DNA from: Candidatus Aenigmatarchaeota archaeon
GTDB taxonomy: Archaea > Aenigmatarchaeota > Aenigmatarchaeia > CG10238-14 > SCSR01
DNA: 64,000 bases
Reading direction: 5' to 3'
Assembly: GCA_039000425.1 (NCBI GenBank)
Contig: JAWBPV010000002.1
Coordinates: forward strand, 14,303 to 78,302
Of the stretch, positions 3,976 through 34,733 are shown piece by piece. The translations under genes and the position numbers were made by a program. Position 1 is the stretch's first letter. The number at the start of each line of letters is the position of its first letter. Under the pieces are notes generated by a model. That model was not told the origin of the DNA. It saw nothing but the letters and a program-made list of their open reading frames with translations, and searched no databases.

Positions 3976-4004
3976 CTCCTTTTTCTTTCTTATAACCTAA
4001 AAGC
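3976..4004 (-). promoter_or_regulatory. conserved early promoter/RBS module (instance 1)
   Basis: The minus strand reads TTTAGGTTATAAGAAAGAAAAAGGAGGTG. The same module recurs at six or more other minus-strand gene starts. Confidence 0.5.
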
Positions 4005-4033
4005 TTTAGGGGATTTTGAAAAAAGGAAACTCT

Positions 4034-4876
4034 TTAGAGTTTCAACAGATCTGCAATATTCGCAAAAGGTGCATCCGGCACTTTTATTGCTTGCAAAATT
4101 CCAGCTTTTTCAATACGCACAATCAAAGAAACATTACGTGGCGCATCAAAGAAAGTATAACCTGTTGCATCAGTTACATAAACTTTCTTACGACTAACTC
4201 CAAGCTTATCCCCAACACGCTTTGGCACATCATAACCCACTTCAACTTCCACGCCAGATGCTGGCTCCAAATTCAAATCAACAGCAAAAACATGAATCCG
4301 ACACAATTCAGGATCGGGCGATGGAGTATAAACAATCGGCCCTCCGATAATCTCAATGCTTGTATCATCTTGAACTAAAAGAAATGTCGAATCAAATTTA
4401 TATCCAGCGCGATATGCATTAATCACGTAAGAGCCTCCGCTGAGATATACAATTGCCTTTCCATTTCCATTAGTAAGCGTCTTAAGTATGGGAGTGCTAT
4501 CACTGATTATTGACAACATAACATCTGGAATTATCTGATTATCGGTGGTTTTAGCACTAATTTCAACACGGAATATACCAAATCTATCAGATATTGCGGC
4601 ATAGTTCTTAACAAAAATATGCTCAAGCAAAGGCTCAAAGCCAACACTGGTATATTTAATCAAATAATCTCCTTCAATATCAAAAACAGAAGAATCAAAC
4701 CTTCGGTAATAAACGCCTGGGAGAAAAGAGCTTTCAGTTAAACTAAAAGGACCAAGCTCGGTATCGTCGGGCTTTTTGATAAAACATTCAACCAAAGCAC
4801 CTGAAACACGATTTCCTGCCTCATCAACAAGTTCAACTAACGCTAAAACCTGTTCTCCTAAATTATAACGAATCAT
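4034..4876 (-). CDS. beta-sandwich protein with two CarboxypepD_reg-like domains
   Basis: 280 aa. Two segments resemble carboxypeptidase-regulatory (Ig-like) domains (…NGNGKAIVYLSGGSYVINAYRAGYKF…). Stop/start overlaps the 871-aa gene. Confidence 0.5.
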   Translation of the reverse strand: MIRYNLGEQVLALVELVDEAGNRVSGALVECFIKKPDDTELGPFSLTESSFLPGVYYRRFDSSVFDIEGDYLIKYTSVGFEPLLEHIFVKNYAAISDRFGIFRVEISAKTTDNQIIPDVMLSIISDSTPILKTLTNGNGKAIVYLSGGSYVINAYRAGYKFDSTFLLVQDDTSIEIIGGPIVYTPSPDPELCRIHVFAVDLNLEPASGVEVEVGYDVPKRVGDKLGVSRKKVYVTDATGYTFFDAPRNVSLIVRIEKAGILQAIKVPDAPFANIADLLKL

Positions 4877-7488
4877 GGTTTCTTTATCCGTCTCTTTCCA
4901 ACAAGCATACTGGGACTATAATAAATCTTCGAATTCGCCGCTGGTGGTGCCTCAAAGATAAATTGCATTTTATTTCTATCAAATTTGACTTCGTCGGGTA
5001 TACTCCCAGGTGGTGATGAGATTTCTGGAGTGTATTTGTAACCAAAAAACCCGTTGCTTTGGTTTAAAAACACATAACCATTATCATTGCCAATTATATA
5101 TAAACCGATTTCACTGCTAGGTAATTGCTGCAAATCCCAAAACGGTGACCACGTATGTCCATCTTTTGATCGACGAATCATTAACGACATTGTTGCCACA
5201 TTAATTCCGCATGCTAAATACAAATCTTTAACTTTAGTAATAAAATAAACACCATTTAGTTGCGGTTCAAATTCTGTTGTTGATAAATTCAATCGGCCGA
5301 ATACCGCAGTCGACATGTCATTCATACTTGTCAATCTTATACACCACAAAGAGTCGGCGTTGATCATCACGGGAATCCAGTAGTAGTTACCCGATGGTAC
5401 AATCAAAGGTCCAAATGTAGGTTCGTTTGATGATATATCATATGAAAATGGAAGTATTGCATTTGACGCCAATACAGGTGCAAAACCCGAAATAACTGTG
5501 CCATTCGCCTTTATGGGGCAGCCAATTATAAAGTTTCCACCGCCTGGAACATTTGGGACAATAATATCATCGACAGTGTCGATTGTTTGATTCATTAAAT
5601 CGATTTTGACAAAAGACAATCCAATTGAAACTCCGTCATCACGCATTATACAATAGTAAAACGCATCATTGATTTTAACTGTATTTCCGCCAATGAATCG
5701 CAAAGAAGTTGAGTAATTTATTGGCAAAAAAGTAGCATTTTTAAGTTCTTCAAGTGTTGTTCCCGAACGCATATATGCTCGCTCTTCGAGTCGGATTTCA
5801 TAAATCAAATTATTATCATAAATAAAGAGTTCTCCCTGAAACCCCATCGGAGTAAATTCAACGGGTTCGCTTAACGATTCTGGTATTGGTGGTATATATG
5901 GAGTTTTCCAGTCTTCAGAAACGTCTATAACCGATATTTTACGTAGTACGCCATCTCCAACTAAATCCGCCCAAACATCGATTGCTTCGTTTGGAATAGA
6001 CAGTAATTGTGGCACATCAACATTAAATGTCGTTGTAACTCCATCACCTTCCAAAACACCCGCAGGTTTAATATTTGCAATAATTTTTTCTTCTGTTTTC
6101 TCAATTCTCTCATAAAAATAAGGTTGTAAAATTTCCATTGCGTAATTTAACGGTACAGAGTCTTTACAATAGCTCGGGATATCCCCGATCGGATTTTTAT
6201 TTGGTGAAGTATCATATACTATCTCTTCCTCCGAGCCAAAGAAAAACCCTTTTGCATAGTTAAAAATGTATCCATTTTCTCTGAACACACCACGAAACAT
6301 ATCAGGTCCGTCGGCAATAATAATTTTTCTCGGGTCAACTCCGAAACTACGTAACCATTCTTCATTTCTCAAAAAAGACTGATAATAAAGAAATGCAAAA
6401 AGCGATTTAGAAATTGAACTGAATTTCGTGTATACACCCGAACCAATATTTTTTGTTCTTATCAAACATGAGAATGGATAAAACATTGCACAACAATTTA
6501 AAAAAGATATTGAAGATGACATTTGTGAGAAATCATAGAGTACAAATGGAATTGAAGCAGGTGAAAGCCAAATGTAACATCTATCAAAAACAATTGACGG
6601 AAATCCAACCGAAAAAAATCCCTCCGTTAGATCTAAAAATGCCATCGCATTTATAAAACAAGATTTAAACACTAAAGTTGGCAGCATCGCCGACATTGTA
6701 TGAACTGTAAATTGAGGTTCTCCATTGCTTCGTACCTCAAAAACAGGTTCGCCTGCTTTATGTCGTTGGGTTATTTGTGAAGTATCTATTCTAAGACAAT
6801 TTAAATAAATTCTGTCGTTCGTATGCGCATCAAAATCAAGCGCTGGTGAAATGTGAACTTCGGTTCGATCGTTTGCGGGATCGTAATTCATTGAAACGAT
6901 ATCAAAAATATTAAAAATGGGGAAAAATATGGTTTTGAATGCAAATTTTCTTATTGTGTTCCATGGCGGAACATCGATATTTCCTGCAACATAAATTACA
7001 TTACTTCCAAATGGTGCGTCGGCGACGAGATATGTATTGTAATTTTGGGCATTCATTTGTTCAATGTTGGGATAGATTCCTACGTACCCGCCACTCCAGT
7101 CTATCGCACCCCATACCGGTACGTCTCTAATACCCGTATTTGGTTCAATATCTTCAAGAATTACACCTACATTATCAACATTTGCAACATGGCCTATTTC
7201 AAGTCCTTCGAAAAATGCTTTCGCATCATTGACAATTGAAACTTTGCCAAAGATATGACCATTATAACCAACAAAATGAACAGCTTTGTTATTTAACAAT
7301 ATATCTCCGAATGTATTTCCTATTACAACGACAGTGTCGCCGCTTTCAAGAATAGAATCAACACCTTGCCATGTTTGTTTCGCGGTTTGCCGAGTTAGTC
7401 CATCGTTATCATCATTGCCATTCATTTCATCCCAATAAATCCGTTTTCCCGCTTTAAAAAGACTTTCCATGAACTCGCTTAAAATCAT
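4873..7488 (-). CDS. large right-handed parallel beta-helix (pectate-lyase fold) protein, paralog A; candidate tailspike/depolymerase
   Basis: 871 aa. The N-terminus KRIYWDEMNGNDDNDGLTRQTAKQTWQGVDSILESGDTVVVIGNTF matches the classic G-x-D-x-N-D-G...GDT-V/I signature of beta-helix proteins. Its C-terminus (DRNKMQFIFEAPP..KIYY) aligns with 24099..26669. Confidence 0.7.
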   Translation of the reverse strand: MILSEFMESLFKAGKRIYWDEMNGNDDNDGLTRQTAKQTWQGVDSILESGDTVVVIGNTFGDILLNNKAVHFVGYNGHIFGKVSIVNDAKAFFEGLEIGHVANVDNVGVILEDIEPNTGIRDVPVWGAIDWSGGYVGIYPNIEQMNAQNYNTYLVADAPFGSNVIYVAGNIDVPPWNTIRKFAFKTIFFPIFNIFDIVSMNYDPANDRTEVHISPALDFDAHTNDRIYLNCLRIDTSQITQRHKAGEPVFEVRSNGEPQFTVHTMSAMLPTLVFKSCFINAMAFLDLTEGFFSVGFPSIVFDRCYIWLSPASIPFVLYDFSQMSSSISFLNCCAMFYPFSCLIRTKNIGSGVYTKFSSISKSLFAFLYYQSFLRNEEWLRSFGVDPRKIIIADGPDMFRGVFRENGYIFNYAKGFFFGSEEEIVYDTSPNKNPIGDIPSYCKDSVPLNYAMEILQPYFYERIEKTEEKIIANIKPAGVLEGDGVTTTFNVDVPQLLSIPNEAIDVWADLVGDGVLRKISVIDVSEDWKTPYIPPIPESLSEPVEFTPMGFQGELFIYDNNLIYEIRLEERAYMRSGTTLEELKNATFLPINYSTSLRFIGGNTVKINDAFYYCIMRDDGVSIGLSFVKIDLMNQTIDTVDDIIVPNVPGGGNFIIGCPIKANGTVISGFAPVLASNAILPFSYDISSNEPTFGPLIVPSGNYYWIPVMINADSLWCIRLTSMNDMSTAVFGRLNLSTTEFEPQLNGVYFITKVKDLYLACGINVATMSLMIRRSKDGHTWSPFWDLQQLPSSEIGLYIIGNDNGYVFLNQSNGFFGYKYTPEISSPPGSIPDEVKFDRNKMQFIFEAPPAANSKIYYSPSMLVGKRRIKKP

Positions 7489-7673
7489 AAACCCCTCCGA
7501 TTAATCTCAATATTTATCTTTTCAAGTGCTTTGACAATGTCTTCACGATCACCATATAAACTCCTAGCATTTTCAAATTCCCGTTTCAATTGCAATAATC
7601 TCTCATCGGGCATAAGCTTCAGGTTGAACTTATAATAATATGTCCATAATGATGGTAAAAATGGGCTAGCCAT
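7485..7673 (-). CDS. small helical protein preceding beta-helix paralog A
   Basis: 62 aa, ATGA-overlapped with the 871-aa gene. Weakly similar in pattern to the 83-aa ORF preceding paralog B. Confidence 0.45.
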   Translation of the reverse strand: MASPFLPSLWTYYYKFNLKLMPDERLLQLKREFENARSLYGDREDIVKALEKINIEINRRGL

Positions 7674-8048: not shown

Positions 8049-8493
8049 AAACCTCTATTTTTGCTGACTTTAAAAAGAGAACATATTTACTACTATTTGC
8101 TACCAACGCCAATTCTCTCGCTTGAACTTCATAGGAAATGTTATAATACGCCTTAAAAAATGAACAAAAACGCAATAAATTCTCAATAAATTCCAAAGCA
8201 TATTTACAATAAAATTTCAACTTTCCATCAATCCGTTGCTGGGCAATATGCACGGTTTCATGCTTGAATATCATAACAGAATGAGGATATTCCAACACTA
8301 TATACGGATCTTGTGCAATGCCCGAATATTTAAAAAACTTAAGTCCTATCCATGCAAAAATTGCACGAATTAGTCCTATTTCTTTAAACAAAGCTGAAAA
8401 AGTATCAACAAGTTTTCCATATTTATAAAGTTCACTGGCCGGATGATAAAGCCCGGGAAGACTCACATAAGAAGTAATCCTATAAACTATCAT
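8041..8493 (-). CDS. hypothetical protein with HExxH motif (possible minimal zincin)
   Basis: 150 aa. Contains ...FKHETVHIAQQ... Confidence 0.4.
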   Translation of the reverse strand: MIVYRITSYVSLPGLYHPASELYKYGKLVDTFSALFKEIGLIRAIFAWIGLKFFKYSGIAQDPYIVLEYPHSVMIFKHETVHIAQQRIDGKLKFYCKYALEFIENLLRFCSFFKAYYNISYEVQARELALVANSSKYVLFLKSAKIEVFA

Positions 8494-9017
8494 TCTCCAG
8501 AATTCCCAAAGATGTAAATGTATTTGCCATCCGCGCCCTTTTTCCAGCGTTCAAAACGATTCCCCATATCTACATGAAAAAAATTCTGTGCAGGATAGTA
8601 ACCCAATCCATTAAATCCACACTGCTCGCACAATGCCCATATGTAACGCTCTATGCCATTGGCCTGGAATTTATAAAACTCGGGCAATTTCGTCAACAAC
8701 TTCGTTCGTGCCGTCTGCGATAAAGTAAAATCAACTGCTTGTTTTTTTGTATGAAACGAATTGAATGCCCCCCCAATTGCAGCATTATGCTCGGGACATC
8801 TATATCCAGATGTAATCAAAATTGGAACGCCAAGCATTGAACGAAATCGGTCAAGAGTTAGAACTAAACTCTCATCCATGTCATAAACGGGGATATTTTT
8901 GTGAATAGAACATTTACAAGCGAACTCCTCAGGACGAAAATATTTGACCTTTGACCAATCCATGAAATTATTATAACTCAAAACGAACTCAAACAACAAC
9001 AAATGTTTGAACGCCAC
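8490..9017 (-). CDS. peptidase M15 family (D-Ala-D-Ala carboxypeptidase / endolysin-like) protein
   Basis: LITSGYRCPEHNAAIGGAFNSFHTKKQAVDF matches the M15 zinc-binding signature. The true start may be the internal Met (MDWSKVKY) at 8963. Confidence 0.75.
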   Translation of the reverse strand: MAFKHLLLFEFVLSYNNFMDWSKVKYFRPEEFACKCSIHKNIPVYDMDESLVLTLDRFRSMLGVPILITSGYRCPEHNAAIGGAFNSFHTKKQAVDFTLSQTARTKLLTKLPEFYKFQANGIERYIWALCEQCGFNGLGYYPAQNFFHVDMGNRFERWKKGADGKYIYIFGNSGE

Positions 9018-9440: not shown

Positions 9441-9653
9441 TCACTTATTCAATAATTCTTCTATAACCGTTGTAATACATCCTCCCCACCACAATATTGA
9501 TAATACAATCGCGAAGATGGAGAAACCTTTGTTTACGGTTTTCTCCACTTCTTCTTCTTTCCAATAATATGTCATAATGCTCGCGATTAAACAATATACC
9601 ATAAATCCCTTAAATATTTCCTCCAATAACGCGAAAATTAAATTGCTAACCAT
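9441..9653 (-). CDS. small two-TM membrane protein
   Basis: 70 aa. Preceded by the conserved promoter/RBS module at 9659-9688. Confidence 0.5.
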   Translation of the reverse strand: MVSNLIFALLEEIFKGFMVYCLIASIMTYYWKEEEVEKTVNKGFSIFAIVLSILWWGGCITTVIEELLNK

Positions 9654-9658
9654 TTTTC

Positions 9659-9688
9659 ACCTCCTTTTTCTTTCCTTATAACTAAAAA
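9659..9688 (-). promoter_or_regulatory. conserved early promoter/RBS module (instance 2)
   Basis: The minus strand reads CGTTTTTAGTTATAAGGAAAGAAAAAGGAGGTG, then 6 nt, then ATG. Confidence 0.5.
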
Positions 9689-9741
9689 CGCTATGTTAAA
9701 ATTTGATGGCAAAAGCTAAAAAAAAAGAAGCTGCTCCTCCC

Positions 9742-9959
9742 TTAGAGCAGCTTCCACATTTCCCAAATGACTGGTAACCATAAAGGCACGACCAGCCACC
9801 CGGCAAGGCTTCCTCCAAACAACACCAAATCTGGCACCAATACCAGCATAGTTGCGAAGAACATCAATACGAACACTCCTACAAGTTCATTCGGCGGATT
9901 TATGAAAATAAAAACAACCAAGATAATCAATCCAATTAACAAATTGACTAAACAAGGCA
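9742..9959 (-). CDS. small membrane protein (start revised to the RBS-supported ATG)
   Basis: The track ORF starts at 10008, but the promoter/RBS module (9966-9998) lies inside that extension. ATG 9959 (MPCLVNLLIGL...) follows GGAGGTG with a 6-nt spacer. Confidence 0.5.
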
Positions 9960-9965
9960 TTTTTT

Positions 9966-9998
9966 CACCTCCTTTCTTTTTTTCCTTATAACTAAAAT
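9966..9998 (-). promoter_or_regulatory. conserved early promoter/RBS module (instance 3)
   Basis: The minus strand reads TTTAGTTATAAGGAAAAAAAGAAAGGAGGTG. Confidence 0.5.
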
Positions 9999-10010
9999 GC
10001 CCCTTCATTT

Positions 10011-10143
10011 TTAGTCTGACTTGTCAATCATTTTATTCAAAAATTTCTTGACATAATCAAATAATTCGTCCAATTTATGAACATATTTAGGATCCTTAAT
10101 GCACGCTTTTATGAAATCGTTGTCACACTCTAAAGTAAAATAT
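10011..10143 (-). pseudogene. 5'-truncated remnant of a seventh member of the 11414-14612 paralog family
   Basis: The minus-strand frame gives YFTLECDNDFIKACIKDPKYVHKLDELFDYVKKFLNKMIDKSD*. This matches the conserved ECDDEFV.KCIE..KYVHKLDELF.YVEKFL core of the family. An in-frame stop follows Y at the 10143 end of the fragment and there is no start codon. It abuts the upstream end of the tnpB element. Confidence 0.55.
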
Positions 10144-11413
10144 CAGAAACTAATCACTAAATATATAGAAATCTATTGATATTGATAGAATTTTATTGTG
10201 CAACTTTAATATGAAAAATCAGCTATGATATTTGGATTGATTTTTAATGTTTTTCATGATAAATTATGACTATGATTCGGTCAGCGAAATATACATTGAA
10301 ATTCGCTACAAATAAAAAGAAAAATTATCTTAATCAATTGTTTGACATTTATGTTAAATATCTACAAAAAACAATTGATTTAATGTGGAACAAACAGATT
10401 CCAATCAAGAAGAAGTTATCATCAAAGAAGATAACATGGATGGACGATTTAGGCGGTCAATATAAAAATTTGATATATCAACATGCGTCTCGGATTGTAA
10501 GATCGTGTCGGTTTAAAAAGGGAAAAAAACCGGTGATAAAAAATCCGACTATAACTTTTGATGCGAGAATGGTGAACATTGAAAAATCTCATAACACGTT
10601 TGATAAATGGATCAGACTGAAACTACCATTTATCAAAGATGGATATAAAAATCGTCGGATTGAAATTTTAATCCCGTTAAAGGAGCATCGGCATAGTCTA
10701 AAGTTTAAAGATTGGGAATTAGTTAAATCAGTTCGAATCAACAGGGATTTTGTCACTTTGATATTTAAAAAAGAAACTCCGAAGCCGAAGGAGAACGGCA
10801 AAATAATCGGAATTGATATTGGCTACAAATATTTGATTGCGACTTCGGAAGGCGAACTAATCGGGTCTGAGATGGAACGAATCTATGAAAAGATAGCAAG
10901 GAAAAGACAAGGTTCGAAAGCATTTAAACGAGCATTGATCGAGCGTGATAATAAGATAAATGAAATCATTAACAAAAATCTTGATTTAAGCAATGTAAAG
11001 ATTTTGAAAGTTGAGGACTTGAAAAATGTGAAAAAGAACAGTCATGGTCGGATTAGAAGAAAATTTAATAATAAACTACAAAGGTGGTCATACCCGAAAG
11101 TTATAGATAAGCTGAAACGTGCATGTGAGGAAGAAGCCGTGCAATTCCTCCGTGTGCGTCCAGCTTATAGTTCAATTACATGCCCGAGGTGTCAATTCCG
11201 ACATAAAAGTAACCGTATTGGTGAAAAATTCAAGTGTCGGAATTGTGGCTACGTTAATCATGCCGACATCGTCGGTGCGATAAATGTAGCCAATTGGGAG
11301 CCTATAGTCCCCAATGCACCAAAAACCTCAGTTCAGGAACAAATTTCTATAAACTGAGGAACTATGACCTCAATGATTCTAATGTTTCAATAGTTATTAT
11401 TCGTTCCATAGCT
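10144..11413 (+). mobile_element. IS200/IS605-family insertion (tnpB-only); ends approximate
   Basis: The only long plus-strand gene in a minus-strand block, with no tnpA. A truncated host-family gene lies on its left flank. Boundaries are inferred from the flanking CDS ends, not from identified LE/RE hairpins. Confidence 0.45.
10266..11357 (+). CDS. tnpB: TnpB / IS605 OrfB-type RuvC-like nuclease
   Basis: 363 aa. RuvC-I IGIDIGYKYL, RuvC-II KVEDLKNV, and a C-terminal Zn finger plus RuvC-III (CPRCQF...CRNCGYVNHADIVGAINVA). Confidence 0.85.
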   Translation: MTMIRSAKYTLKFATNKKKNYLNQLFDIYVKYLQKTIDLMWNKQIPIKKKLSSKKITWMDDLGGQYKNLIYQHASRIVRSCRFKKGKKPVIKNPTITFDARMVNIEKSHNTFDKWIRLKLPFIKDGYKNRRIEILIPLKEHRHSLKFKDWELVKSVRINRDFVTLIFKKETPKPKENGKIIGIDIGYKYLIATSEGELIGSEMERIYEKIARKRQGSKAFKRALIERDNKINEIINKNLDLSNVKILKVEDLKNVKKNSHGRIRRKFNNKLQRWSYPKVIDKLKRACEEEAVQFLRVRPAYSSITCPRCQFRHKSNRIGEKFKCRNCGYVNHADIVGAINVANWEPIVPNAPKTSVQEQISIN

Positions 11414-11962
11414 TCAACCAGCTTCTTTGTTTAATTTGTCAATCATTCTCTTTGATGCAACAACCTTGAATATTCTCGTATTTTTTAATTCCTGCATTAT
11501 TTCATCTTTAATTTGATTTGACCTCTTAATCATTTCACTTAGAAATTTTTCAATATACTCAAACAATTCATCTAACTTATGAACATACTTAGCATCTTCA
11601 ATACACTTCTTCACAAATTCATTATCAAAATTTAAAGGTCTAAAAGATTCACTTTCAAGACTTGATTTAGAGATTTGAATATATAATTCGCCATTTTGGA
11701 AAAAAAAGCCAAAATCAGTATATTTATTTAATATGCGATCTATTTTGTCGGCTTTACATCCCAACCTCTTCAATCCTTGCAAAAATGCAATAGCTGCTTC
11801 GTCTTCTCCAGAAATATTTCCAAACTGATTCTTCAGTATTTTAAGGCGATCCGCAATTAGCTCATTAATTTCCTCGCGTAAATCTCTTAAAGTAGAATTA
11901 TCAACAAATCTTTCCCTAAAAATTTCTTGAATTAACTTTTCGACTGAAGAACTAGACCTCAT
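11414..11962 (-). CDS. tandem paralog family P1 (unknown function)
   Basis: 182 aa. Shared blocks: FGNISG..AIAFLQGLK..., DEFVKKCIEDAKYVHKLDELFEYIEKFL, ...QIKDEIMQELKNTRIFKVVAS. Own promoter/RBS module at 11972-11993. Confidence 0.65.
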   Translation of the reverse strand: MRSSSSVEKLIQEIFRERFVDNSTLRDLREEINELIADRLKILKNQFGNISGEDEAAIAFLQGLKRLGCKADKIDRILNKYTDFGFFFQNGELYIQISKSSLESESFRPLNFDNEFVKKCIEDAKYVHKLDELFEYIEKFLSEMIKRSNQIKDEIMQELKNTRIFKVVASKRMIDKLNKEAG

Positions 11963-11971
11963 ACTGCTTAT

Positions 11972-11993
11972 CCCTCCTTTTTTATAACTAAAT
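11972..11993 (-). promoter_or_regulatory. conserved early promoter/RBS module (instance 4, short variant)
   Basis: The minus strand reads TTTAGTTATAAAAAAGGAGGG, then 9 nt, then ATG 11962. Confidence 0.45.
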
Positions 11994-12045
11994 TTACCGA
12001 TTAACTTCAGCTACATCTAAAATTTATTCTTTTGAATTAATTTTC

Positions 12046-12579: not shown

Positions 12580-12630
12580 GTCTCACCTCCTCTTATTGAT
12601 TAATTACTCGTTTTAAACTGTTTTTCATTT

Positions 12631-13104: not shown

Positions 13105-13163
13105 ATGTACCTCCCTTCATAACGTTGCTTTAGTAAAATTAAAAATAAAATCAATAGGGAACA

Positions 13164-14104: not shown

Positions 14105-14612
14105 TTTCTCCCTCCGCCAATTTATCTAACAATCTCTGCGAAGCAACCTCTCTAAATACCCGCGTCTTCTTTAATTCATTCATAATCTCGTCTTTAATCC
14201 TCTTTGACGAATTCCTCACTTGAATCAAGAAATTTTCAACAAAATCAAATAGCTCATCCAATTTCCAAACATATTCTGAATTATTGATACATCTTCTTAC
14301 AAATTCATCATCACATTCCAATCGAAATTCTCGCTTGTAATCATTACCATCAATCGCTTGGACAACAAGAGCTCTATCATTCAATTTAAAATCAATCGGT
14401 CTATAGCTCAAAAATAGTTTTGCCGAATCCGTGCGAAATCCTGATAGACTCAATCCTTGCAAAAATGCAATGGCCATATCAGAATCTCCACGAATTAGAC
14501 CAAATCTTTTGTAAAGTAATTCAATCTTCTTTCTAATCAAACTATTCAATTCTTCTTTCAATTCTTCAAATGTTCTACAATCAATTAATTTTGATTTTTG
14601 TTCATTACTCAT
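14097..14612 (-). CDS. tandem paralog family P6 (start revised)
   Basis: The track ORF begins at 14699, but the promoter/RBS module (14617-14641) lies inside that extension. ATG 14612 (MSNEQKSKLIDC...) follows GGGAGC with a 6-nt spacer, giving 171 aa. ...ECDDEFVRRCINNSEYVWKLDELFDFVENFL. Confidence 0.65.
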   Translation of the reverse strand: MSNEQKSKLIDCRTFEELKEELNSLIRKKIELLYKRFGLIRGDSDMAIAFLQGLSLSGFRTDSAKLFLSYRPIDFKLNDRALVVQAIDGNDYKREFRLECDDEFVRRCINNSEYVWKLDELFDFVENFLIQVRNSSKRIKDEIMNELKKTRVFREVASQRLLDKLAEGENE

Positions 14613-14616
14613 GTTA

Positions 14617-14641
14617 GCTCCCTTTTTTTTTCTTATAACAA
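14617..14641 (-). promoter_or_regulatory. conserved early promoter/RBS module (instance 5)
   Basis: The minus strand reads TGTTATAAGAAAAAAAAAGGGAGC. Heads the P6-P5-P4 coupled unit. Confidence 0.45.
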
Positions 14642-14757
14642 GTTTTAATCCGCAAAATAAATTTAGGTAATAATTATTTAAAAACCATGAATTAATCACA
14701 AAAAAACGCTACAAAGCTAAAATAAAGGAAGAGTGAGGCCACTCTCCCTTTTTATTA

Positions 14758-16131: not shown

Positions 16132-17143
16132 AATAAACTTCTACAATTTTCTCCCAATTCGGAAGTGTTGCAATTTGTTCCTTTATTTTTGCAAAAAGCA
16201 TCCGAATCAAAAACGCGCCGAATTCCTTTTTAGATTCTTTCGCCAAAAATAGAGCATAATCCAGAATTGCCTTATAATGCGCGGGTTTCTCGGCGCGAAT
16301 TACAATAGTAGTGCAAACAGCTGACAATACATCCAATTTATCAATCTCAGGAAATTCTTTTCCATCCAAAATCTTCTCAATATTAGGCAATTCATTGTAA
16401 ACCTTCAAAAATCCTTCAAATTCTGCTGCCGTCGCCGGGCCTACAGAAATCGCCGCGGCTTCATAAGGTGCAATCCCCGCTTTCAACAATTTAGAGCAAA
16501 ATTCCCATGTTCTAGGACATGGGAAGTTAATTGTATTTCGATTTGGAATACTTGTAAATGATGGTTTAAATTTATTGAATGCAAGAATTCTTGGATCAAA
16601 CCCTTTCTCAATTGCGTATTCAACAAATTCATCAAATGAAAATTGTATCTCAAAATGGTTAAATCTGCTGATAATGGCTTCACTCAATTCGGCAACATAC
16701 GGGACATCCTCCCGCCTGTTGCCGGCGGCAAATATATACCAATTATCTCCTAATTTGTGTTCTCCAATTACTCTATCTAACACCAATTGTTGCGATGCTT
16801 TCAATACTTCCTCATTTGCTAAATTAAATTCGTCTAAGAACAAAATACCCTTTCCTGAATCAGGCAAATTGTTGGGCCGATACCATCCGGCCTTTTCTCC
16901 TTTAACGAGAAAAGGTCCTCTCAAATCAATAATGTCGCAACTCGCCAATCTCAAATCAATCCAACTAATTCCCAATTCTTCAGCCAATTGCCTTACGGCC
17001 GAGGTCTTCCCAATCCCCACTGGTCCCCAGAGAAAAATCGCATTTGCCTCTGGGGCCGAAAATGTTTTTAAATAATTCTTCGCAATACTTTTAAATTTCT
17101 TAATTGAACATCGCAATCCGTAAATCCGTTCCGTGACCTTCAC
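16109..17143 (-). CDS. MoxR-like AAA+ ATPase (AAA_5/CbbQ-NorQ type), copy 1 (GTG start)
   Basis: Walker A LWGPVGIGKTS and Walker B ILFLDEFNLANEEVL. The track start 17191 lies upstream of the promoter/RBS module (17156-17180). An in-frame GTG at 17143 follows GGAGG. Confidence 0.8.
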   Translation of the reverse strand: MKVTERIYGLRCSIKKFKSIAKNYLKTFSAPEANAIFLWGPVGIGKTSAVRQLAEELGISWIDLRLASCDIIDLRGPFLVKGEKAGWYRPNNLPDSGKGILFLDEFNLANEEVLKASQQLVLDRVIGEHKLGDNWYIFAAGNRREDVPYVAELSEAIISRFNHFEIQFSFDEFVEYAIEKGFDPRILAFNKFKPSFTSIPNRNTINFPCPRTWEFCSKLLKAGIAPYEAAAISVGPATAAEFEGFLKVYNELPNIEKILDGKEFPEIDKLDVLSAVCTTIVIRAEKPAHYKAILDYALFLAKESKKEFGAFLIRMLFAKIKEQIATLPNWEKIVEVYYDPFMGD

Positions 17144-17155
17144 TATAGTTTTAAC

Positions 17156-17180
17156 CTCCTTTTCTTTTCTTATAACTTTT
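17156..17180 (-). promoter_or_regulatory. conserved early promoter/RBS module (instance 6)
   Basis: The minus strand reads AAAAGTTATAAGAAAAGAAAAGGAGG. Confidence 0.45.
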
Positions 17181-17265: not shown

Positions 17266-17435
17266 GCATGGAGGCTGAGATGAAGGGAATAGAAAAATGA
17301 AAACTGCTCAAAACTAAGTTTCCAATTATTATTCAAATTCAAACTCCTATAAATGTCAATATAATATTCCATTTAGTATTTTTGCAACTACTTTCTCATT
17401 CTTAACAGATAATTGCAATTAAGAATATTTAGAAA

Positions 17436-17454
17436 GGCAGGCTTGACGCCTGCC
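17436..17454. other. hairpin GGCAGGC-TTGAC-GCCTGCC (possible terminator of the polA unit)
   Basis: 7-bp GC-rich perfect stem, ~95 nt downstream (minus sense) of the stop of gene 17548..17859. The U-tract is weak. Confidence 0.4.
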
Positions 17455-17547
17455 CCTGTTATGAGGTAGGAAGCGGAAGAGAGAGGGATTAATTTAATTT
17501 TAACAAAAATATTCTAAAAAAGCCAGCAAAATGTGCACTTTTCATTT

Positions 17548-28575: not shown

Positions 28576-28611
28576 TTGACTTTATTTTAGATTTTATGTA
28601 AATAAGAATCA

Positions 28612-29427: not shown

Positions 29428-29437
29428 GTGAACCTCC

Positions 29438-29737: not shown

Positions 29738-29963
29738 TTTTACCTCCTTTTAGAAATAATTCTTCAAAACATTCTTTACAAATCCAAAACGGAGCATCAC
29801 AAGTATTGAAAATAATGACATTCTTTGTTTTTTCATCTACAACATATTCAAAGTTAAATCTTCTTTTTCTGTATTGTCTAATCTTGCCCTCAAAATAATG
29901 CCCACAATCCAAACCACAAAAAGTGCAATCGTCGCTTGCCATCAGGTCTTTTCTTATCTTCAT
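29703..29963 (-). CDS. small Cys-containing protein
   Basis: 86 aa. CTFCGLDCGH...CDAPFWICKEC. Confidence 0.4.
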   Translation of the reverse strand: MKIRKDLMASDDCTFCGLDCGHYFEGKIRQYRKRRFNFEYVVDEKTKNVIIFNTCDAPFWICKECFEELFLKGGKNEVKTKNNIGM

Positions 29964-30021
29964 TTTGTTCTCTTATAACTGAATCTTTATTTAAATGCAA
30001 CCTAAATGTTAAAATTGAGTT

Positions 30022-30465
30022 ATGATAAGAATAGTTCGTCTGGAAACCTTACCTTCACAGATAAGAGACGAGCTTGCAAAGCAAATTGTGCGACTTGCGG
30101 CATCAGAAGCGAGACTTTTAAACTTAACTTCTCCTAAAATGTGGAGATTGTTTTTGCGTGGTCTGTACAAACAACACACGTTTGTTCTTTTGAAAGATGG
30201 CAAAGTAATTGGTTTTGTGAACTATGGATATAACACCTTAAACTTTCCGGAATTATCATATATACGTGCTATTGCTGTAGTTAAAAATGAGCGAAATAAT
30301 GGTTATGGGAAAAAATTGCTGAGACTTGCAATAGCAAATCTTTCCTCTCCAATATGGATCGTTACACGGCTGGAGAATATAAAAATGCAGAGTCTTTTAA
30401 GAAAATTGGGATTTCAATTCTGGTTTAGGGATAAAGACAATTTAGCGTTTATTCGTTTCGATTGA
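30022..30465 (+). CDS. GNAT family N-acetyltransferase
   Basis: ...RAIAVVKNERNNGYGKKLLRLAI... matches the acetyl-CoA-binding motif A. Confidence 0.65.
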   Translation: MIRIVRLETLPSQIRDELAKQIVRLAASEARLLNLTSPKMWRLFLRGLYKQHTFVLLKDGKVIGFVNYGYNTLNFPELSYIRAIAVVKNERNNGYGKKLLRLAIANLSSPIWIVTRLENIKMQSLLRKLGFQFWFRDKDNLAFIRFD

Positions 30466-30948: not shown

Positions 30949-31303
30949 TGTTTTTTAGTTTGTCTGAAATTACTTTTAAATTGTCTTTAACTACTGTTTC
31001 TTCAACCAGTTTTGCGCCTTTTTTCCCAATCCAAATTAAAACTGGAGCCATTTCCAGCTCCGGAGACGCTCTTGAGCAAAAGACTATAGCTAATTTATTC
31101 TCGCCTGGAATAGACGTAATCCATGCTATATCGGAATAGTTTAAATCTTTTAAAAGAAAATCAATAAGATACAATTTGACACGATATACGCTTTCTGAGC
31201 CATCAAAAGATTTGCAAATAACCGTTCCTTCTGGATTTTCATTTGAATTATACAGTTGAATTGTTGTTTCGATAATATTTCTTATTTCAGTTTCCGTCCA
31301 CAT
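30932..31303 (-). CDS. hypothetical protein
   Basis: 123-aa ORF. Confidence 0.45.
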   Translation of the reverse strand: MWTETEIRNIIETTIQLYNSNENPEGTVICKSFDGSESVYRVKLYLIDFLLKDLNYSDIAWITSIPGENKLAIVFCSRASPELEMAPVLIWIGKKGAKLVEETVVKDNLKVISDKLKNNDSWH

Positions 31304-32573
31304 CCATCACCTCCTCTAGCGGTATTACCGTGCCAAATGGCACGTCTTTTTTGTCTGAGGTTGCAATCCATAATACCGGAATTGTTGGAGCGACTTCGCC
31401 AAAATCCGCTTCGAGGTCGCTTACAAATACCACGGCGTGCGCTTCAGCATGACGTTTCACAATTTCAGGAAGACTCTTGAATACTGTTCCTCCTCGGCCA
31501 CGTATTTTGATATTTCTGAAGTCAGGTTTCTCATTTTCCAGCTTCTCATAAAAGGTTTTTTGTGCGTCCATTTGATAATGATGTACAACAAAATTGGGAA
31601 ATGAATCAAGAATGTCTGCAAGCAAACCGTATGCGAAAGCCAATTCTTTCTCTTCCATACTTCCTGAGGTGTCTACAATGAATATTATATTTAGCTGTTT
31701 ATCCCTGAAGAAATTGTGCAACATACCTGTAAAATTGCTTCTTTTGGTCCATGTCAGCATTGCATTTCTTTGAATAATAAAATCGCAAAATTCTCCTAGA
31801 ATCGCTTCAACGTTAATCCTTGGTCTGAGAATTTCTTTTAGCAGTTCTTCAAGCATACCCGGACAGGTTCCTTGCTGTTTTAAACGTTGCGAAAATTGCA
31901 CAAGTGCAATAAATGTTCCCGAACATGCTTGAGAATTAGAATCGCTTGATAAATTTGGCACTTCTAAATGGTCCTTTGGAGTAAAGATGTTATTTCCATT
32001 TAGGACTAAAAACACTCTTCCCTGCGAATCAACCACTACAAAAGAATTTCCCATTTGTTTCGTTTTATATTTTCTTTTCAACTTTTCATAAACTTCTTCG
32101 ACCGAACAATTATCATAGCTGCGATCATGCACTTCTGGATATAATTCAAAAGGTTCAATTTCCGATTTTCCATCTCTTTGGAATGCTGGCAATTCGGAAA
32201 ATTTCACACAGATTTTGTCTACCACAATGTCCATAGCCATTGCCCATAATGGATCCATAAAAATCTTTTTCAATTTTGAACGAAATCCATGAAATAGTGC
32301 TATGTGAAGCAGTTCATGCAATAAAAGATATGCAACTTTCGCTTTGGCACGCTGTTTTTCAAATTTATTTATATACTCGGGATTGCATTCAACAACCATT
32401 TGTCCATGTTCAAGATGCACGGAAGCAATTGGAGGTGCAAAAGTTCCCGAAATAATTGCATCTAAAGCTAAATCTTCTTTTGAATACAGTTTAATGATCA
32501 TTCCTGCAATATCTCCAGCGAATTCGGGCAAAAGACGAATCAATGAAGTTTTTGCTATACTTATTATCTTCAT
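31287..32573 (-). CDS. VWA-domain protein with HExxH metallopeptidase-like N-domain (MoxR partner), copy 2
   Basis: 428 aa. LLHELLHIALFHGF and MIDAS motif IIFIVDTSGSMEEKE. Same architecture as 14758..16131 but divergent sequence. Confidence 0.75.
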   Translation of the reverse strand: MKIISIAKTSLIRLLPEFAGDIAGMIIKLYSKEDLALDAIISGTFAPPIASVHLEHGQMVVECNPEYINKFEKQRAKAKVAYLLLHELLHIALFHGFRSKLKKIFMDPLWAMAMDIVVDKICVKFSELPAFQRDGKSEIEPFELYPEVHDRSYDNCSVEEVYEKLKRKYKTKQMGNSFVVVDSQGRVFLVLNGNNIFTPKDHLEVPNLSSDSNSQACSGTFIALVQFSQRLKQQGTCPGMLEELLKEILRPRINVEAILGEFCDFIIQRNAMLTWTKRSNFTGMLHNFFRDKQLNIIFIVDTSGSMEEKELAFAYGLLADILDSFPNFVVHHYQMDAQKTFYEKLENEKPDFRNIKIRGRGGTVFKSLPEIVKRHAEAHAVVFVSDLEADFGEVAPTIPVLWIATSDKKDVPFGTVIPLEEVMDVDGN

Positions 32574-33694
32574 GTTTTTATGTCTAACAGTTCAAGCACA
32601 TCTTTCAACTTTTTATTATCAATTATATGCCAGAACTTTTCCATGGGCAGCTTTCTGTAAACGAGAATACTCAGTCCGAACACCATCAGTTCTTTTGGTG
32701 GGATTGTGGTTTTTTCATCCCATTTCGTCCATGCTATTTTATGCATTACATCTACTGCGTTTTTTAAGGCTTTAATGTCATTCAGAGGGGCATTCTGAGC
32801 AATTGCAGATACAGCGATGACTGCTTGTCTGGAATTGGCTATATTTGGCACAATTCCCTTTGTATAAACTGCATTCAAATCCAGCATCATCTTTAGAGCA
32901 TCATTCTGTATGAAAGCTTCAAATTGTGTGCCTGCACTGATCCCCACAGTAGAAGAAAATACGGCAAGACGTACTTCGGGATTTAGTTTCATTGCATGCC
33001 CAAGATCTCTGCTAAGCATTTCCCAAGCACGTGGACATGGAAAAGGCATTTCTGGATTTAATTTTGCATAGTCATAATTTGCAAAGTAAGAAGGATAGAG
33101 CTTCAGGAAGCTGATAATTTCCGATGCTATATTATTTGGAACAGCAAAGTTCTTTACCCAAGTATCGAAATCGGGATGAACATGGATAATTCTGAATCTG
33201 CTTCTCAAAGGTTCGGACAGCTGATGAACAAATGCGAAAGTCTTTTTGGAATTGCCTGCGGCAACAATCATATAGTTTTCGCCTAACTTATGCGGTCCAA
33301 TTGTTCTTGTGTAAACTAGCTGTAATGCTGCATTCAGAACTTCTTTAGTTGCACAATTCAGCTCATCCAGAAAAAGAATGCCTCTTTCAACATTGTTGGT
33401 TGGAAACAAATCTTCGGACGGTTTAAACCATTCAACCTGTTTTTTCTCAAAAATAGGAACTGCAAAACCTCTTAAATCGGAAGGATCTATTATCAAATGG
33501 AGAGGCGCTATTACCAATTTTGCATTAAATTCGTCGGCAAGTTGCTGAACAATTGCAGTTTTACCAACGCCTGGAGGACCATAAATGAAGCAAGCAGCTT
33601 TGCTAATTCCTTTCCAGAAATTAACCATATTGAATCTTAACCATTCCTTTGCTATCGCTATATTTACGCTATATTCCTGGGCTGTTTCAGTCAT
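32570..33694 (-). CDS. MoxR-like AAA+ ATPase, copy 2
   Basis: Walker A IYGPPGVGKTA and Walker B ILFLDELNCATKEVL. Overlaps the VWA gene (ATGA). Confidence 0.8.
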   Translation of the reverse strand: MTETAQEYSVNIAIAKEWLRFNMVNFWKGISKAACFIYGPPGVGKTAIVQQLADEFNAKLVIAPLHLIIDPSDLRGFAVPIFEKKQVEWFKPSEDLFPTNNVERGILFLDELNCATKEVLNAALQLVYTRTIGPHKLGENYMIVAAGNSKKTFAFVHQLSEPLRSRFRIIHVHPDFDTWVKNFAVPNNIASEIISFLKLYPSYFANYDYAKLNPEMPFPCPRAWEMLSRDLGHAMKLNPEVRLAVFSSTVGISAGTQFEAFIQNDALKMMLDLNAVYTKGIVPNIANSRQAVIAVSAIAQNAPLNDIKALKNAVDVMHKIAWTKWDEKTTIPPKELMVFGLSILVYRKLPMEKFWHIIDNKKLKDVLELLDIKT

Positions 33695-34313: not shown

Positions 34314-34547
34314 TGAGTTTTATCCTCCTTTTTCTACTTAAAATTTTTCCGTATTTAATCTGCTGATTGTTTTGAAATGAATTATTTATTTGTTCTGTGC
34401 CAGAATCCGGAAATCTGTGATCAAACCATTCCTTGAGAATGTTCCATGATGATACAAGATCAGCTTTTATTTTTTCTCGATTAAATTCTTTCTCAAGCCA
34501 ATCTATAAAATCATCAAAAAGTTGCACAATTCCATGATAAAAATGCT

Positions 34548-34703
34548 TTATTTTGGTGATGATTTTCTTTTTATCCATCTCAGCACCACATACGCGGTGA
34601 TAGCGCATCCTGCAATAACCATAATAACTCTTACAAATTTAAACGCAATTGCAGATAAAAATAAAATTACTGCAATGATTAACCATTTTGTAGTATCACT
34701 CAT
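34548..34703 (-). CDS. small membrane protein (51 aa)
   Basis: ATG 34703 sits 5 nt after GGAGG within the conserved module 34709-34733 (MSDTTKWLIIAVILFLSAIAFKF...). The alternative track ORF 34249..34608 in another frame is less well supported. Confidence 0.4.
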   Translation of the reverse strand: MSDTTKWLIIAVILFLSAIAFKFVRVIMVIAGCAITAYVVLRWIKRKSSPK

Positions 34704-34708
34704 AGCTA

Positions 34709-34733
34709 ACCTCCTTTTTTCTCTTATAACTAA
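34709..34733 (-). promoter_or_regulatory. conserved early promoter/RBS module (instance 7)
   Basis: The minus strand reads TTTAGTTATAAGAGAAAAAAGGAGG. Confidence 0.45.

What the first reader, a model, noticed from the sequence alone, without database searches (positions are those of the whole stretch)
3976..34733. A ~28-nt conserved promoter-plus-RBS module precedes at least seven minus-strand early genes and is absent from the plus-strand virion block
The intact module occurs upstream of genes starting at 3965, 9653, 9959, 11962, 14612, 17143 and 34703. Read on the sense strand it is TTTAGTTATAAG(A/G)AA(A/G)nAAAAGGAGG, then 6-12 nt, then ATG or GTG. Degenerate versions precede 12579 and 13104. 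The TATAAG/TTATAAG core sits only ~10 nt upstream of the Shine-Dalgarno sequence, so these transcripts have very short leaders. None of the plus-strand late genes (37569 onward) has it. They use plain GGAGG RBSs. That fits temporal-class-specific promoters, possibly read by host sigma early, with the phage sigma factor (41128-41904) serving the late genes. In four cases the automated ORF start lay upstream of the module, and the module locates the true start.
Basis: seen in the sequence. Interest (0 to 1): 0.55.

Follow-up and report, generated by a model that had tools for sequence, protein, structure and literature searches.

The report
Phage-specific promoter fused to ribosome site
A short DNA signal (GTTATAAG, followed a few bases later by a ribosome-binding site) switches on the non-structural genes of this uncultured phage. 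Nearly the same signal occurs 31 times in the distantly related Salmonella phage Arash, so it is probably read by the phages' own sigma factor rather than the host's.

Summary
GTTATAAG occurs 7 times in the window, all on the minus strand and all 8-25 nt before a start codon. Two more copies lie just outside the window.

It is best read as a -35-less, extended -10-like promoter (G-14, T-13, TATAAG) placed 8-12 nt before a strong Shine-Dalgarno sequence. Six of the ten copies sit where a new transcript must begin, after a terminator or a strand switch. No RNA structure is present.

- Structural genes (portal, baseplate) carry host-type TGnTAnAAT boxes, often 6-9 nt before an ATG with no RBS, which looks leaderless.
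- The module has an invariant G where host sigma needs T at -7.
- The phage's sigma-like protein (41128-41904) belongs to a phage family that places this gene inside the virion module.
- In its only cultured member, Salmonella phage Arash (53% GC), GGTATAAG is the top intergenic motif. It has 31 copies against 4.6 expected, 30 of them before leftward non-structural genes.
- Arash's sigma was detected in virion preparations.

This is a new, unreported member of a known kind: a phage-sigma single-element promoter. No transcript data exist.

The parts
3963..4000 (-). Module copy: TTAG-GTTATAAG (3989-3996), 9-nt purine tract, GGAGG, GTG start at 3965. It drives a single 96-aa gene flanked by terminators.
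   Evidence: A terminator lies at 4043-4026 just upstream and another at 3676-3660 after the gene. The 26 nt from GTTATAAG to GGAGGTGAT are invariant in strain variant L008, while the flanks diverge.
9651..9686 (-). Module copy: TTTA-GTTATAAG (9675-9682), 10 nt, GGAGG, ATG at 9653. It drives a 70-aa membrane protein.
   Evidence: A terminator at 9755-9726 lies upstream. The copy is conserved in L008.
9958..9996 (-). Module copy: TTTA-GTTATAAG (9985-9992), 12 nt, GGAGG, ATG at 9960. It drives a 72-aa membrane protein. This is the first minus-strand gene after the opposite-strand TnpB gene.
   Evidence: Database gene calls start at 9960. The copy is conserved in L008.
11960..11992 (-). Variant copy: TTTA-GTTATAAA (11981-11988), only 3 nt before GGAGG, ATG at 11962. 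It precedes the last gene of the six-paralog array.
   Evidence: This is the only copy without G at the last position and with a collapsed spacer.
14610..14643 (-). Module copy: CTT-GTTATAAG (14632-14639, that is, TGTTATAAG), 9 nt, GGGAG, ATG at 14612. It precedes the first gene of the six-paralog array.
   Evidence: A terminator at 14751-14724 lies upstream.
17141..17180 (-). Module copy: AAAA-GTTATAAG (17169-17176), 9 nt, GGAGG, GTG at 17143. It drives the MoxR-type AAA ATPase and DUF2201/VWA gene pair.
   Evidence: It is preceded by a 400-nt non-coding region with hairpins.
29961..29983 (-). It has the same geometry as the leaderless genes and sits back to back with a TGTTAAAAT box (30007-30015, plus strand) for the divergent gene 30022-30465.
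34701..34734 (-). Module copy: TTTA-GTTATAAG (34723-34730), 8 nt, GGAGG, ATG at 34703. It drives a 51-aa membrane protein and then the second MoxR and DUF2201 pair.
41128..41904 (+). Gene for a divergent three-domain sigma-70-family protein (258 aa). It is the candidate reader of the module and lies inside the virion-gene block.
   Evidence: Pfam Sigma70_r3 and phrog_351. A family profile matches SigA and RpoS across regions 2-4 with E about 1e-10. The AlphaFold model (pLDDT 79.6) matches full-length sigma factors in PDB at probability 1.00. It is homologous to Arash gp10 at 30% identity.
43977..43997 (+). Example of the second, host-type promoter class: TGTTATAAT, 9 nt, then the ATG of the baseplate-J-like gene, with no SD. 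Further members: TGTTAAAAT at 9694, 30007 and 37531 (plus strand) and 17505 (minus strand); TGATAGAAT at 61205; TATAAT 8 nt before 47531.
   Evidence: The ortholog in L012 has the same geometry.
57120..59915 (+). Portal protein gene interrupted by an intein. It anchors the plus block as virion genes and ties the phage to the Arash group.
   Evidence: Intein_splicing domain. tblastn to Arash gp204 portal gives E 4e-27.

Best explanation
The element is a phage-specific, single-element promoter. It is an extended -10-like box, (T/A)G(T/G)TATAAG, with no -35 partner.

In this phage the box sits 8-12 nt upstream of a strong Shine-Dalgarno sequence. Transcripts are predicted to start in the purine tract about 7 nt after the box and to carry the ribosome-binding site almost at their 5' end. 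At one copy (29979) the start codon sits there instead, giving a leaderless mRNA.

The box launches the non-structural genes: small ORFan and membrane proteins, two MoxR/VWA pairs, a paralog array and, just outside the window, operons containing DnaB, primase and a nuclease. It is kept away from virion genes.

I infer that it is recognised by RNA polymerase carrying the phage's own sigma-70-family protein (41128-41904). This sigma is probably made from a host-type promoter and may be delivered with the virion. The host primary sigma would then read the separate TGnTAnAAT class that serves the virion genes and several leaderless genes.

Shown: the motif, its placement, its class restriction, and its conservation across the phage family. 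Inferred: that it is a promoter, where transcription starts, and which sigma reads it.
For: 1. Discrete class.
- Eight window sites score at least 20.5 bits against 15.1 or less for everything else.
- All 7 exact 8-mers lie 8-40 nt before same-strand starts, with a chance probability of about 2e-12.
- Two further copies lie in the flanks, at L037 16221 and L041 3367.

2. Promoter-like placement.
- Three copies directly follow strong intrinsic terminators.
- Two follow a strand switch, at 9992 and 29979.
- One follows a 400-nt non-coding region.
- The SD-less copy has the same 6-9 nt box-to-ATG spacing as the genes with TATAAT-type boxes.

3. No RNA structure. Folds of all eight regions are at or below shuffle expectation.

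4. Selection. In a strain variant of 96% identity, the 26 nt from GTTATAAG to the SD are invariant within a diverging spacer.

5. Not host-consensus.
- G replaces the near-universal T at -7 in 9 of 10 copies.
- No -35 element is found in any fixed register.
- The same genome holds a separate, canonical TGTTAWAAT class.

6. Family conservation that follows the sigma.
- In Salmonella phage Arash (53% GC; sigma gp10 is 30% identical and in the same virion-module position), unbiased k-mer enrichment of leftward intergenic regions gives GGTATAAG as the top motif.
- Arash has 31 exact copies against 4.6 expected. Thirty are on the strand of the non-structural genes, each before an SD and an ATG. One lies just before gp9-gp10.
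- An invariant TGGTATAAGAA block is the strongest footprint in the divergent spacer of four IMG/VR phages with the same sigma. It is also present in L031/L019.
- Vibrio phage D69 has two intergenic TGTTATAAG sites.

7. The sigma is a real three-domain sigma. Arash gp10 was detected in purified virions at 100% coverage with 467 spectra (PMC10585845).

8. Precedent. The phiEco32 gp36 sigma reads a single element, tAATGTAtA, with starts 6-8 bp downstream (PMC8948821).
Against: - No transcript 5' ends or expression timing exist for this phage or for Arash. Promoter function and the start site are inferred.
- The link between sigma and motif is co-occurrence only.
- No homolog of gp206 or gp216 and no DxDGD motif was found in the 83 kb seen here. 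About 30 kb or more of the genome is unseen.
- The sigma has a region-4-like domain, which would usually imply a -35 element. None is seen.
- The closest relative by sigma (L012, 53% identity) shows no module copies in the 20 kb held.
- Ten further kb of the L035 phage hold no extra copies, and D69 shows no overall enrichment. Multi-copy use is therefore documented only in this phage and in Arash.
- At 11988 the box is 3 nt from the SD, so a start 7 nt downstream would cut into the SD.
- The Arash virion proteome lists 116 proteins, including metabolic enzymes, so virion association of the sigma may be carry-over.
Confidence: 0.55

Rival explanations
1. The module is an early promoter read by the host primary sigma as an extended -10-type promoter, and the phage sigma serves the late virion genes.
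For: - The core matches TATAAT at 5 of 6 positions. G at -14 is invariant, and T at -15 is present in 2 of 10 copies here and about 18 of 31 in Arash.
- A strong promoter plus a strong SD plus a terminator around small ORFan genes is typical of host-read early 'takeover' genes, for example in SPO1 (my knowledge).
- The family profile of the sigma is most similar to SigA and RpoS.
Against: - T at -7 is one of the two most critical bases for primary sigma (established knowledge: Feklistov and Darst 2011). It is G in 9 of 10 copies here and in 31 of 31 in Arash. Such invariance argues for selection for G, not tolerance of it.
- The same odd box is kept in phages of hosts as different as Salmonella and an unknown host of a phage with about 35% GC.
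- The virion genes carry canonical TGnTAnAAT boxes.
- No third motif that could serve a 'late' sigma was found in 83 kb.
Confidence: 0.2
2. The box is the promoter of a phage-encoded RNA polymerase (the Arash gp206/gp216 type, encoded outside the window) or of another phage factor. The sigma-like protein is not the specificity subunit.
For: - Arash encodes RNAP-like gp206 (with a DYDGD motif) and gp216, and both are abundant in virion preparations.
- Arash sites have a conserved TGTA 5 nt after the box, like the initiation regions of phage polymerases.
Against: - No homolog and no catalytic DxDGD motif was found in the 83 kb examined here.
- The box has the anatomy of a bacterial -10 region.
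- The sigma is the protein that demonstrably co-occurs with the motif in all the lineages checked.
Confidence: 0.15
3. The conserved sequence acts at the RNA level, as a translational enhancer, a binding site for a RegA-like repressor or a nuclease processing site in polycistronic mRNA. Alternatively it is an operator for a DNA-binding regulator rather than a promoter.
For: - It is always on the sense strand, close to the SD.
- The leader is A-rich and unstructured, which favours translation.
- The TTATAA core is palindromic.
Against: - Three copies directly follow terminators and two follow strand switches, where a promoter is needed and no other -10-like box is present.
- The distance to the SD varies from 3 to 12 nt, and one copy has no SD.
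- There is no conserved fold.
- In Arash the distance to the SD is different, about 15 nt, while the box is constant.
- The flanking G...G breaks the palindrome.
Confidence: 0.07

Closest known systems
[quoted passage not shown]
   Same: Both are a single conserved element of about 9 bp in the -10 position with no -35. Both occur in a phage that encodes a sigma-family protein, and several copies sit before one gene class. In phiEco32 the starts lie 6-8 bp downstream (PMC8948821).
   Different: The sequence is different. gp36 lacks region 4, whereas this sigma has a region-4-like domain. Here the motif precedes non-structural genes, not late genes. Nothing has been tested experimentally.
T4 late promoters (TATAAATA, read by the gp55 sigma)
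   Same: Both are an 8-bp, -35-less, TATAA-containing box followed by a short leader and an SD (my knowledge).
   Different: T4 late promoters serve virion genes and need gp33 and the sliding clamp. gp55 is a region-2-only sigma. The box here ends in G and begins with G at -14.
Extended -10 (TGnTATAAT) promoters of bacteria and phages, for example the middle and late promoters of Thermus phage P23-45
   Same: Both have G at -14 and a -10 hexamer and are independent of a -35 element. This genome also has true examples (TGTTAWAAT).
   Different: The module has G instead of T at -7 in every strong copy and usually A instead of T at -15. P23-45 redirects the host sigma with small proteins rather than with its own sigma (my knowledge).
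GGTATAAG sites of Salmonella phage Arash
   Same: The core is the same, G(G/T)TATAAG. Both show the same restriction to leftward non-structural genes, a short distance to the SD, and a homologous sigma in the same virion-module position.
   Different: The second base is G rather than T. Arash sites carry a conserved TGTA 5 nt downstream and a longer distance to the SD (about 15 nt against 8-12). The genome is 53% GC and the host is Salmonella. Arash also has RNAP-like genes that were not found here.
PeSL-type cassettes of T4-like phages (early promoter plus stem-loop around ORFan genes)
   Same: Three or four copies form terminator, promoter, small gene, terminator units (3996, 9682, 9992).
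   Different: Most copies head multi-gene operons. Similarity does not extend beyond about 31 nt. There is no evidence of cassette mobility.

Membership tests
Primary-sigma (sigma-70/sigma-A) promoter, extended -10 class | A -10 hexamer with A at -11 and T at -7 | tested here: not met
   TATAAG has A at position 2, but G replaces T at the last position in 7 of 8 window copies, in both flank copies and in 31 of 31 Arash copies.
Primary-sigma (sigma-70/sigma-A) promoter, extended -10 class | TG at -15/-14 | tested here: inconclusive
   G at -14 is invariant. T at -15 is present in 2 of 10 copies here, where A dominates, and in about 18 of 31 in Arash.
Primary-sigma (sigma-70/sigma-A) promoter, -35/-10 class | A TTGACA-like element 16-18 nt upstream | tested here: not met
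   A column-by-column alignment of 10 sites shows no conserved block upstream of -18. The consensus scan does not call these sites.
Phage-sigma single-element promoters (phiEco32 gp36 or T4 gp55 type) | One conserved box of 8-9 bp, no -35, several copies before one gene class | tested here: met
   for this phage; for Arash.
Phage-sigma single-element promoters (phiEco32 gp36 or T4 gp55 type) | The phage encodes a sigma-family protein | tested here: met
   Pfam r3 and phrog_351. A profile hit to SigA and RpoS over regions 2-4. The model matches sigma structures.
Phage-sigma single-element promoters (phiEco32 gp36 or T4 gp55 type) | The motif co-varies with the phage sigma rather than with the host | tested here: met
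   The same box is present in Arash (Salmonella host), four or five IMG/VR lineages and Vibrio phage D69, all of which carry the sigma homolog. Multi-copy use is seen only here and in Arash.
Phage-sigma single-element promoters (phiEco32 gp36 or T4 gp55 type) | Transcription starts 6-9 bp downstream and depends on the phage sigma | not testable with these tools
   This needs 5'-end mapping and in vitro transcription.
Arash-like phage group (membership of this phage) | Shared virion genes and a sigma gene embedded in the virion module | tested here: met
   The sigma, the portal, homologs of gp233, gp234, gp2, gp236 and the major capsid protein, and part of gp8 upstream of the sigma all match, at 22-39% identity.
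Structured cis-regulatory RNA or riboswitch | A conserved fold or an Rfam match | tested here: not met
   There are no Rfam hits. Folding energies are no better than shuffles in 7 of 8 regions.

The most novel reading that the evidence does not exclude
The sigma-70-family protein encoded among the virion genes is packaged in the particle and injected, as its Arash homolog gp10 may be. G(G/T)TATAAG sites would then be immediate-early promoters read by host core polymerase (or a co-injected phage polymerase) carrying a virion-delivered sigma. Virion genes would be left to the host's own sigma. This would be an N4-like inversion of the usual 'host early, phage sigma late' order, achieved with a sigma factor. 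It would be coupled here to two translation modes: SD-led for phage-sigma transcripts and leaderless for many host-sigma transcripts.
Probability: 0.2. Interest if true: 0.7.

Novelty: new member of a known kind. Interest (0 to 1): 0.45.

Why it matters
The result gives a concrete, testable promoter consensus, G(G/T)TATAAG, for a barely studied group of large phages: Arash, Vibrio phage D69-like phages and many uncultured relatives. All of them place a divergent sigma gene inside the virion module.

Arash is culturable on Salmonella. The prediction can therefore be tested directly by asking whether gp10 sigma plus core polymerase reads GGTATAAG, whether G at -7 is required, and where transcripts start.

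If the prediction holds, it explains how these phages separate non-structural from virion transcription. It corrects gene starts in annotation. It would also add a sigma with an unusual -10 preference, and possibly a virion-delivered one, to the known repertoire.

If the host sigma reads the sites after all, the finding is an ordinary phage promoter.

Tried and rejected
- Close relatives. Megablast of 20 kb against GenBank phages found nothing. The best DNA polymerase A relatives are only 30% identical and lie in unrelated phages. The 871-aa protein has no relatives except a 97% strain variant. Exact-protein look-ups returned only near-identical contigs, one of them labelled Candidatus Aenigmatarchaeota. 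Given the sigma and the bacterial-type promoters and RBSs, I take that label to be a binning error.
- Archaeal TATA-box reading (box about 26 nt before a leaderless start). The spacing fits several copies, but I rejected it because of the strong SDs, the copy 8 nt from its ATG, the sigma gene and the Salmonella relative.
- Motif scans of IMG/VR and of GTDB genomes. Both gave only single, chance-level hits, so there is no host clue.
- A -35 element or bipartite motif. None was found.
- A third motif class. K-mer enrichment found only AT-rich noise beyond the two classes.
- RNA structure. None was found. There are no tRNAs.
- A phage RNA polymerase in the window. No DxDGD motif, no hits to Arash gp206 or gp216, and no PDB, Pfam or PHROG hits for the large unknown proteins.
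- Long duplications as the source of the similarity. Repeats end at about 31 nt.
- Extending the L035 phage by 10 kb gave no further copies. D69 showed no enrichment.
- Literature. No paper mentions the motif as a promoter.

Full report
OBSERVATION

The element is present as described. GTTATAAG occurs exactly seven times in the 64-kb window against 1.99 expected, and none of 100 shuffles reach seven. All seven are on the minus strand and all lie in the short gap before a start codon.
- The sites, given by the plus-strand coordinate of the first G, are 3996, 9682, 9992, 14639, 17176, 29979 and 34730.
- A GTTATAAA variant lies at 11988.
- A position matrix built on the eight sites scores them 20.5-25.9 bits, while nothing else in either strand exceeds 15.1.
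- The chance that all seven exact copies fall 8-40 nt upstream of a same-strand start is about 2e-12.
- Unsupervised k-mer enrichment in intergenic DNA and the generic repeat finder both recover the element.
- Two more copies lie just outside the window on overlapping contigs: L037 position 16221 and L041 position 3367.

- The start is at 9960, not 9959.
- Three over-long ORF calls are corrected by the module, not four.
- Only the 8-mer is invariant.

ANATOMY

The '28-nt module' is two adjacent elements.
- The box is (TTTA)GTTATAAG.
- A purine run follows, then GGAGG 8-12 nt after the box at six sites and 3 nt after it at 11988.
- The start codon follows 5-11 nt later.
- At 29979 there is no SD, and the ATG lies 8 nt after the box.
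- No conserved block exists upstream in any fixed register, so there is no -35 element.
- As RNA the regions are unstructured, with folding energies at or worse than shuffles in seven of eight. There is no Rfam match.

Placement fits a promoter.
- Three copies lie directly downstream of strong intrinsic terminators at 4043-4026, 9755-9726 and 14751-14724.
- Two lie where the upstream gene is on the other strand (9992 and 29979).
- One follows a 400-nt non-coding stretch.
- In these gaps the box is the only -10-like sequence.
- In a strain variant of 96.4% identity (L008), the 26 nt from GTTATAAG to the SD are identical while the surrounding spacer, the terminator and even the start codon differ.

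A SECOND PROMOTER CLASS AND THE NATURE OF THE PLUS BLOCK

The same genome contains canonical extended -10 boxes in intergenic positions:
- TGTTAAAAT at 9694, 30007 and 37531 on the plus strand and 17505 on the minus strand.
- TGTTATAAT at 43977.
- TGATAGAAT at 61205 and 10183.

It also contains -35/-10 pairs at 22040-22011, 37496-37469 and 28612-28584, and one before 9369.

Many of these boxes lie 6-9 nt before an ATG that has no SD. This is the geometry of leaderless mRNAs. The genes concerned start at 9369, 23678, 28575, 28612, 30022, 43995, 47044, 47531, 54621 and 61220. The ortholog of the 43995 gene in the relative L012 has the same arrangement. The statement that plus-strand genes use plain GGAGG sites is therefore only partly right.

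The plus block is virion-related.
- The 526-aa protein (43995-45575) is a remote Baseplate_J relative.
- The intein-bearing 931-aa protein is a portal (E 4e-27 to Arash gp204).
- Several neighbours match Arash structural proteins.
- Capsid-type genes also lie on the minus strand just right of the window. There the module copy at L037 16221 sits at the boundary between structural and non-structural genes.

The motif therefore follows gene class, not strand.

THE SIGMA

The protein encoded at 41128-41904 is a genuine but divergent sigma-70-family protein.
- It has Pfam region 3 and phrog_351 matches.
- A profile of it and three homologs matches SigA and RpoS over regions 2 to 4 at E about 1e-10.
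- An AlphaFold model (pLDDT 79.6) matches full-length sigma structures.
- Read against the HMMER alignment, the Trp-Trp dyad of region 2.3 is Asn-Asn in most family members.
- In that alignment, the residues that align with E. coli H455 and E458, which read TG, are Val and Ala. The numbering is from my own knowledge and the alignment is uncertain.
- The gene follows a host-type TGTTAAAAT promoter at 37531, with three genes in between.

COMPARATIVE EVIDENCE

The phage is an orphan by DNA and by most proteins. The sigma, however, has relatives in a family of large phages, always embedded in the virion module. One cultured member exists, Salmonella phage Arash (gp10, 30% identity).

In Arash (53% GC):
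- Unbiased k-mer enrichment of leftward intergenic regions returns GGTATAAG as the best 8-mer.
- The 174 kb held carries 31 exact copies against 4.6 expected.
- Thirty are on the strand of the non-structural genes, each followed by an SD about 15 nt later and a start about 27 nt later.
- The single plus-strand copy lies just before gp9-gp10.
- The consensus is ctGGTATAAGtAAagTGTAaac.

In other relatives:
- In four IMG/VR relatives, the divergent spacer at the head of the leftward block is only 61% identical overall. It contains an invariant TGGTATAAGAA block. L031/L019 have it too.
- Vibrio phage D69 has TGTTATAAG plus a downstream TGTA or TAGA at two leftward intergenic sites.

Limits of this evidence:
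- D69 shows no overall enrichment.
- Ten more kb of the L035 phage add no copies.
- The 20 kb held of the closest relative, L012, show none.

The Arash paper does not mention promoters. It does report gp10 in the virion proteome (100% coverage, 467 spectra) together with RNAP-like gp206 and gp216. It cautions that abundant infected-cell proteins may contaminate the preparation (PMC10585845). No paper in the library describes the motif.

MECHANISM

The best-supported reading is a -35-less, extended -10-like promoter with positions G-14, N-13 and T-12 A-11 T-10 A-9 A-8 G-7. Its last base departs from the T that primary sigma factors bind in a dedicated pocket (established knowledge).
- G at that position is kept in 9 of 10 copies here and in all 31 in a phage of a very different host. 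This argues for a reader that travels with the phage, and the shared sigma is the obvious candidate.
- Transcription should begin about 7 nt downstream, in the purine tract, so that the SD lies within a few bases of the 5' end. At 29979 the ATG takes that place.
- The TGnTAnAAT class, which serves the virion genes, the sigma operon and several leaderless genes, fits the host primary sigma.
- Whether the module genes are early is untested. Possible virion delivery of the sigma would make them immediate-early.

Steps shown: the motif, its placement, its class restriction, its conservation in the family, and the nature of the sigma.

RIVALS

- Host primary sigma reads the box (0.2).
- A phage RNA polymerase or another phage factor reads it (0.15). 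Arash has gp206, gp216 and a second sigma, gp196. No RNAP-like gene or DxDGD motif was found in the 83 kb seen here.
- An RNA-level element or an operator (0.07).

COMPARISON AND NOVELTY

Functionally the element resembles the single-element promoters of phiEco32 gp36 (tAATGTAtA, starts 6-8 bp downstream; PMC8948821) and the T4 late promoters. By sequence it is a variant of the extended -10 class that fails the T-7 criterion.

It is a new, apparently unreported member of a known kind. Its main value is that the family consensus can now be tested in a culturable phage.

Noticed in passing
window 9369, 23678, 28575, 54621 (minus strand); 28612, 30022, 43995, 47044, 47531, 61220 (plus strand): About ten genes have no Shine-Dalgarno sequence and a TATAAT-like box, often with TGn, ending 6-9 nt before the ATG. 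This suggests leaderless mRNAs. The same geometry is kept in the L012 ortholog of the 43995 gene. Enrichment over all ATGs is modest (22 of 82 starts against 16% background, p 0.01).
   Followed up: partly
window 10266-11357 (plus strand) and 10010-10139: A TnpB gene (Cas12f1-like_TNB; transposase phrog_506) sits on the opposite strand inside the minus block. Next to it is a 130-nt remnant of a seventh copy of the paralog family (71% identity to the 3' parts of the six intact copies), as if the insertion had destroyed a paralog.
   Followed up: partly
window 11414-14612 (minus strand): There are six tandem paralogous genes of 140-182 aa with no database matches. The first and last carry the promoter box, and the internal ones carry decayed versions.
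   Followed up: partly
window 17430-17505 (minus strand): A TGTTAAAAT box is followed by about 60 nt rich in C and U (CCCUCUCUCUUCC, CCUACCUC), then a GGCAGGC...GCCUGCC hairpin and a short T run. There is no ORF. This is a candidate small RNA with anti-Shine-Dalgarno-like stretches.
   Followed up: no
window 57120-59915 (plus strand): The portal gene is interrupted by an intein with a LAGLIDADG-type domain at about residues 418-694. In the relative L012, the GARS-like ATP-grasp gene carries an intein instead.
   Followed up: partly
window 9694-9702 (plus strand): A TGTTAAAAT box points antisense into the terminator and the 3' end of the 9742-9960 gene, back to back with the module at 9682. It may drive an antisense transcript or a very small ORF.
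   Followed up: no
window 14758-17143 and 31287-33694 (minus strand): There are two separate pairs of a MoxR-type AAA ATPase with a DUF2201 metallopeptidase/VWA protein. Each pair lies downstream of a module copy.
   Followed up: no
window 36733-37368 (minus-strand gene 36376-37437): Dense GGAGG/GGTGG repeats raise the GC content to 44%. They encode a low-complexity stretch of a 353-aa protein of unknown function, and they inflate the GGAGG k-mer counts on the plus strand.
   Followed up: no
NCBI contigs JAWBVK010000013.1, JAWBVK010000015.1 and JAWBVK010000139.1 (loci L039, L001, L018): Pieces of this phage are deposited in a MAG labelled Candidatus Aenigmatarchaeota archaeon (GCA_038999945.1). 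The sigma gene, the SD usage and the bacterial-type promoters suggest a bacterial virus binned by mistake.
   Followed up: partly
Arash OQ632216.1 11588-11595 (plus strand); loci L024, L032, L034, L035 near 1780-1890: In Arash, the only plus-strand GGTATAAG lies just before gp9 and the sigma gene gp10. In four IMG/VR relatives, an invariant TGGTATAAGAA lies in the divergent spacer about 8 kb upstream of the sigma, next to a second conserved TATAAT-type block.
   Followed up: partly
window 8490-9017 and 1051-1536 (minus strand): A Peptidase_M15_3 protein lies downstream of the two small membrane proteins that carry module copies, which may form a lysis cassette. An SLT-domain protein is also present. 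These are lysis-type functions on the supposedly 'early' strand.
   Followed up: no
window 51341-51985 (plus strand): Internal tandem repeats (231-nt units at 80% identity and 24-nt units) lie within the 1293-aa protein. They are typical of fibre-like proteins.
   Followed up: no
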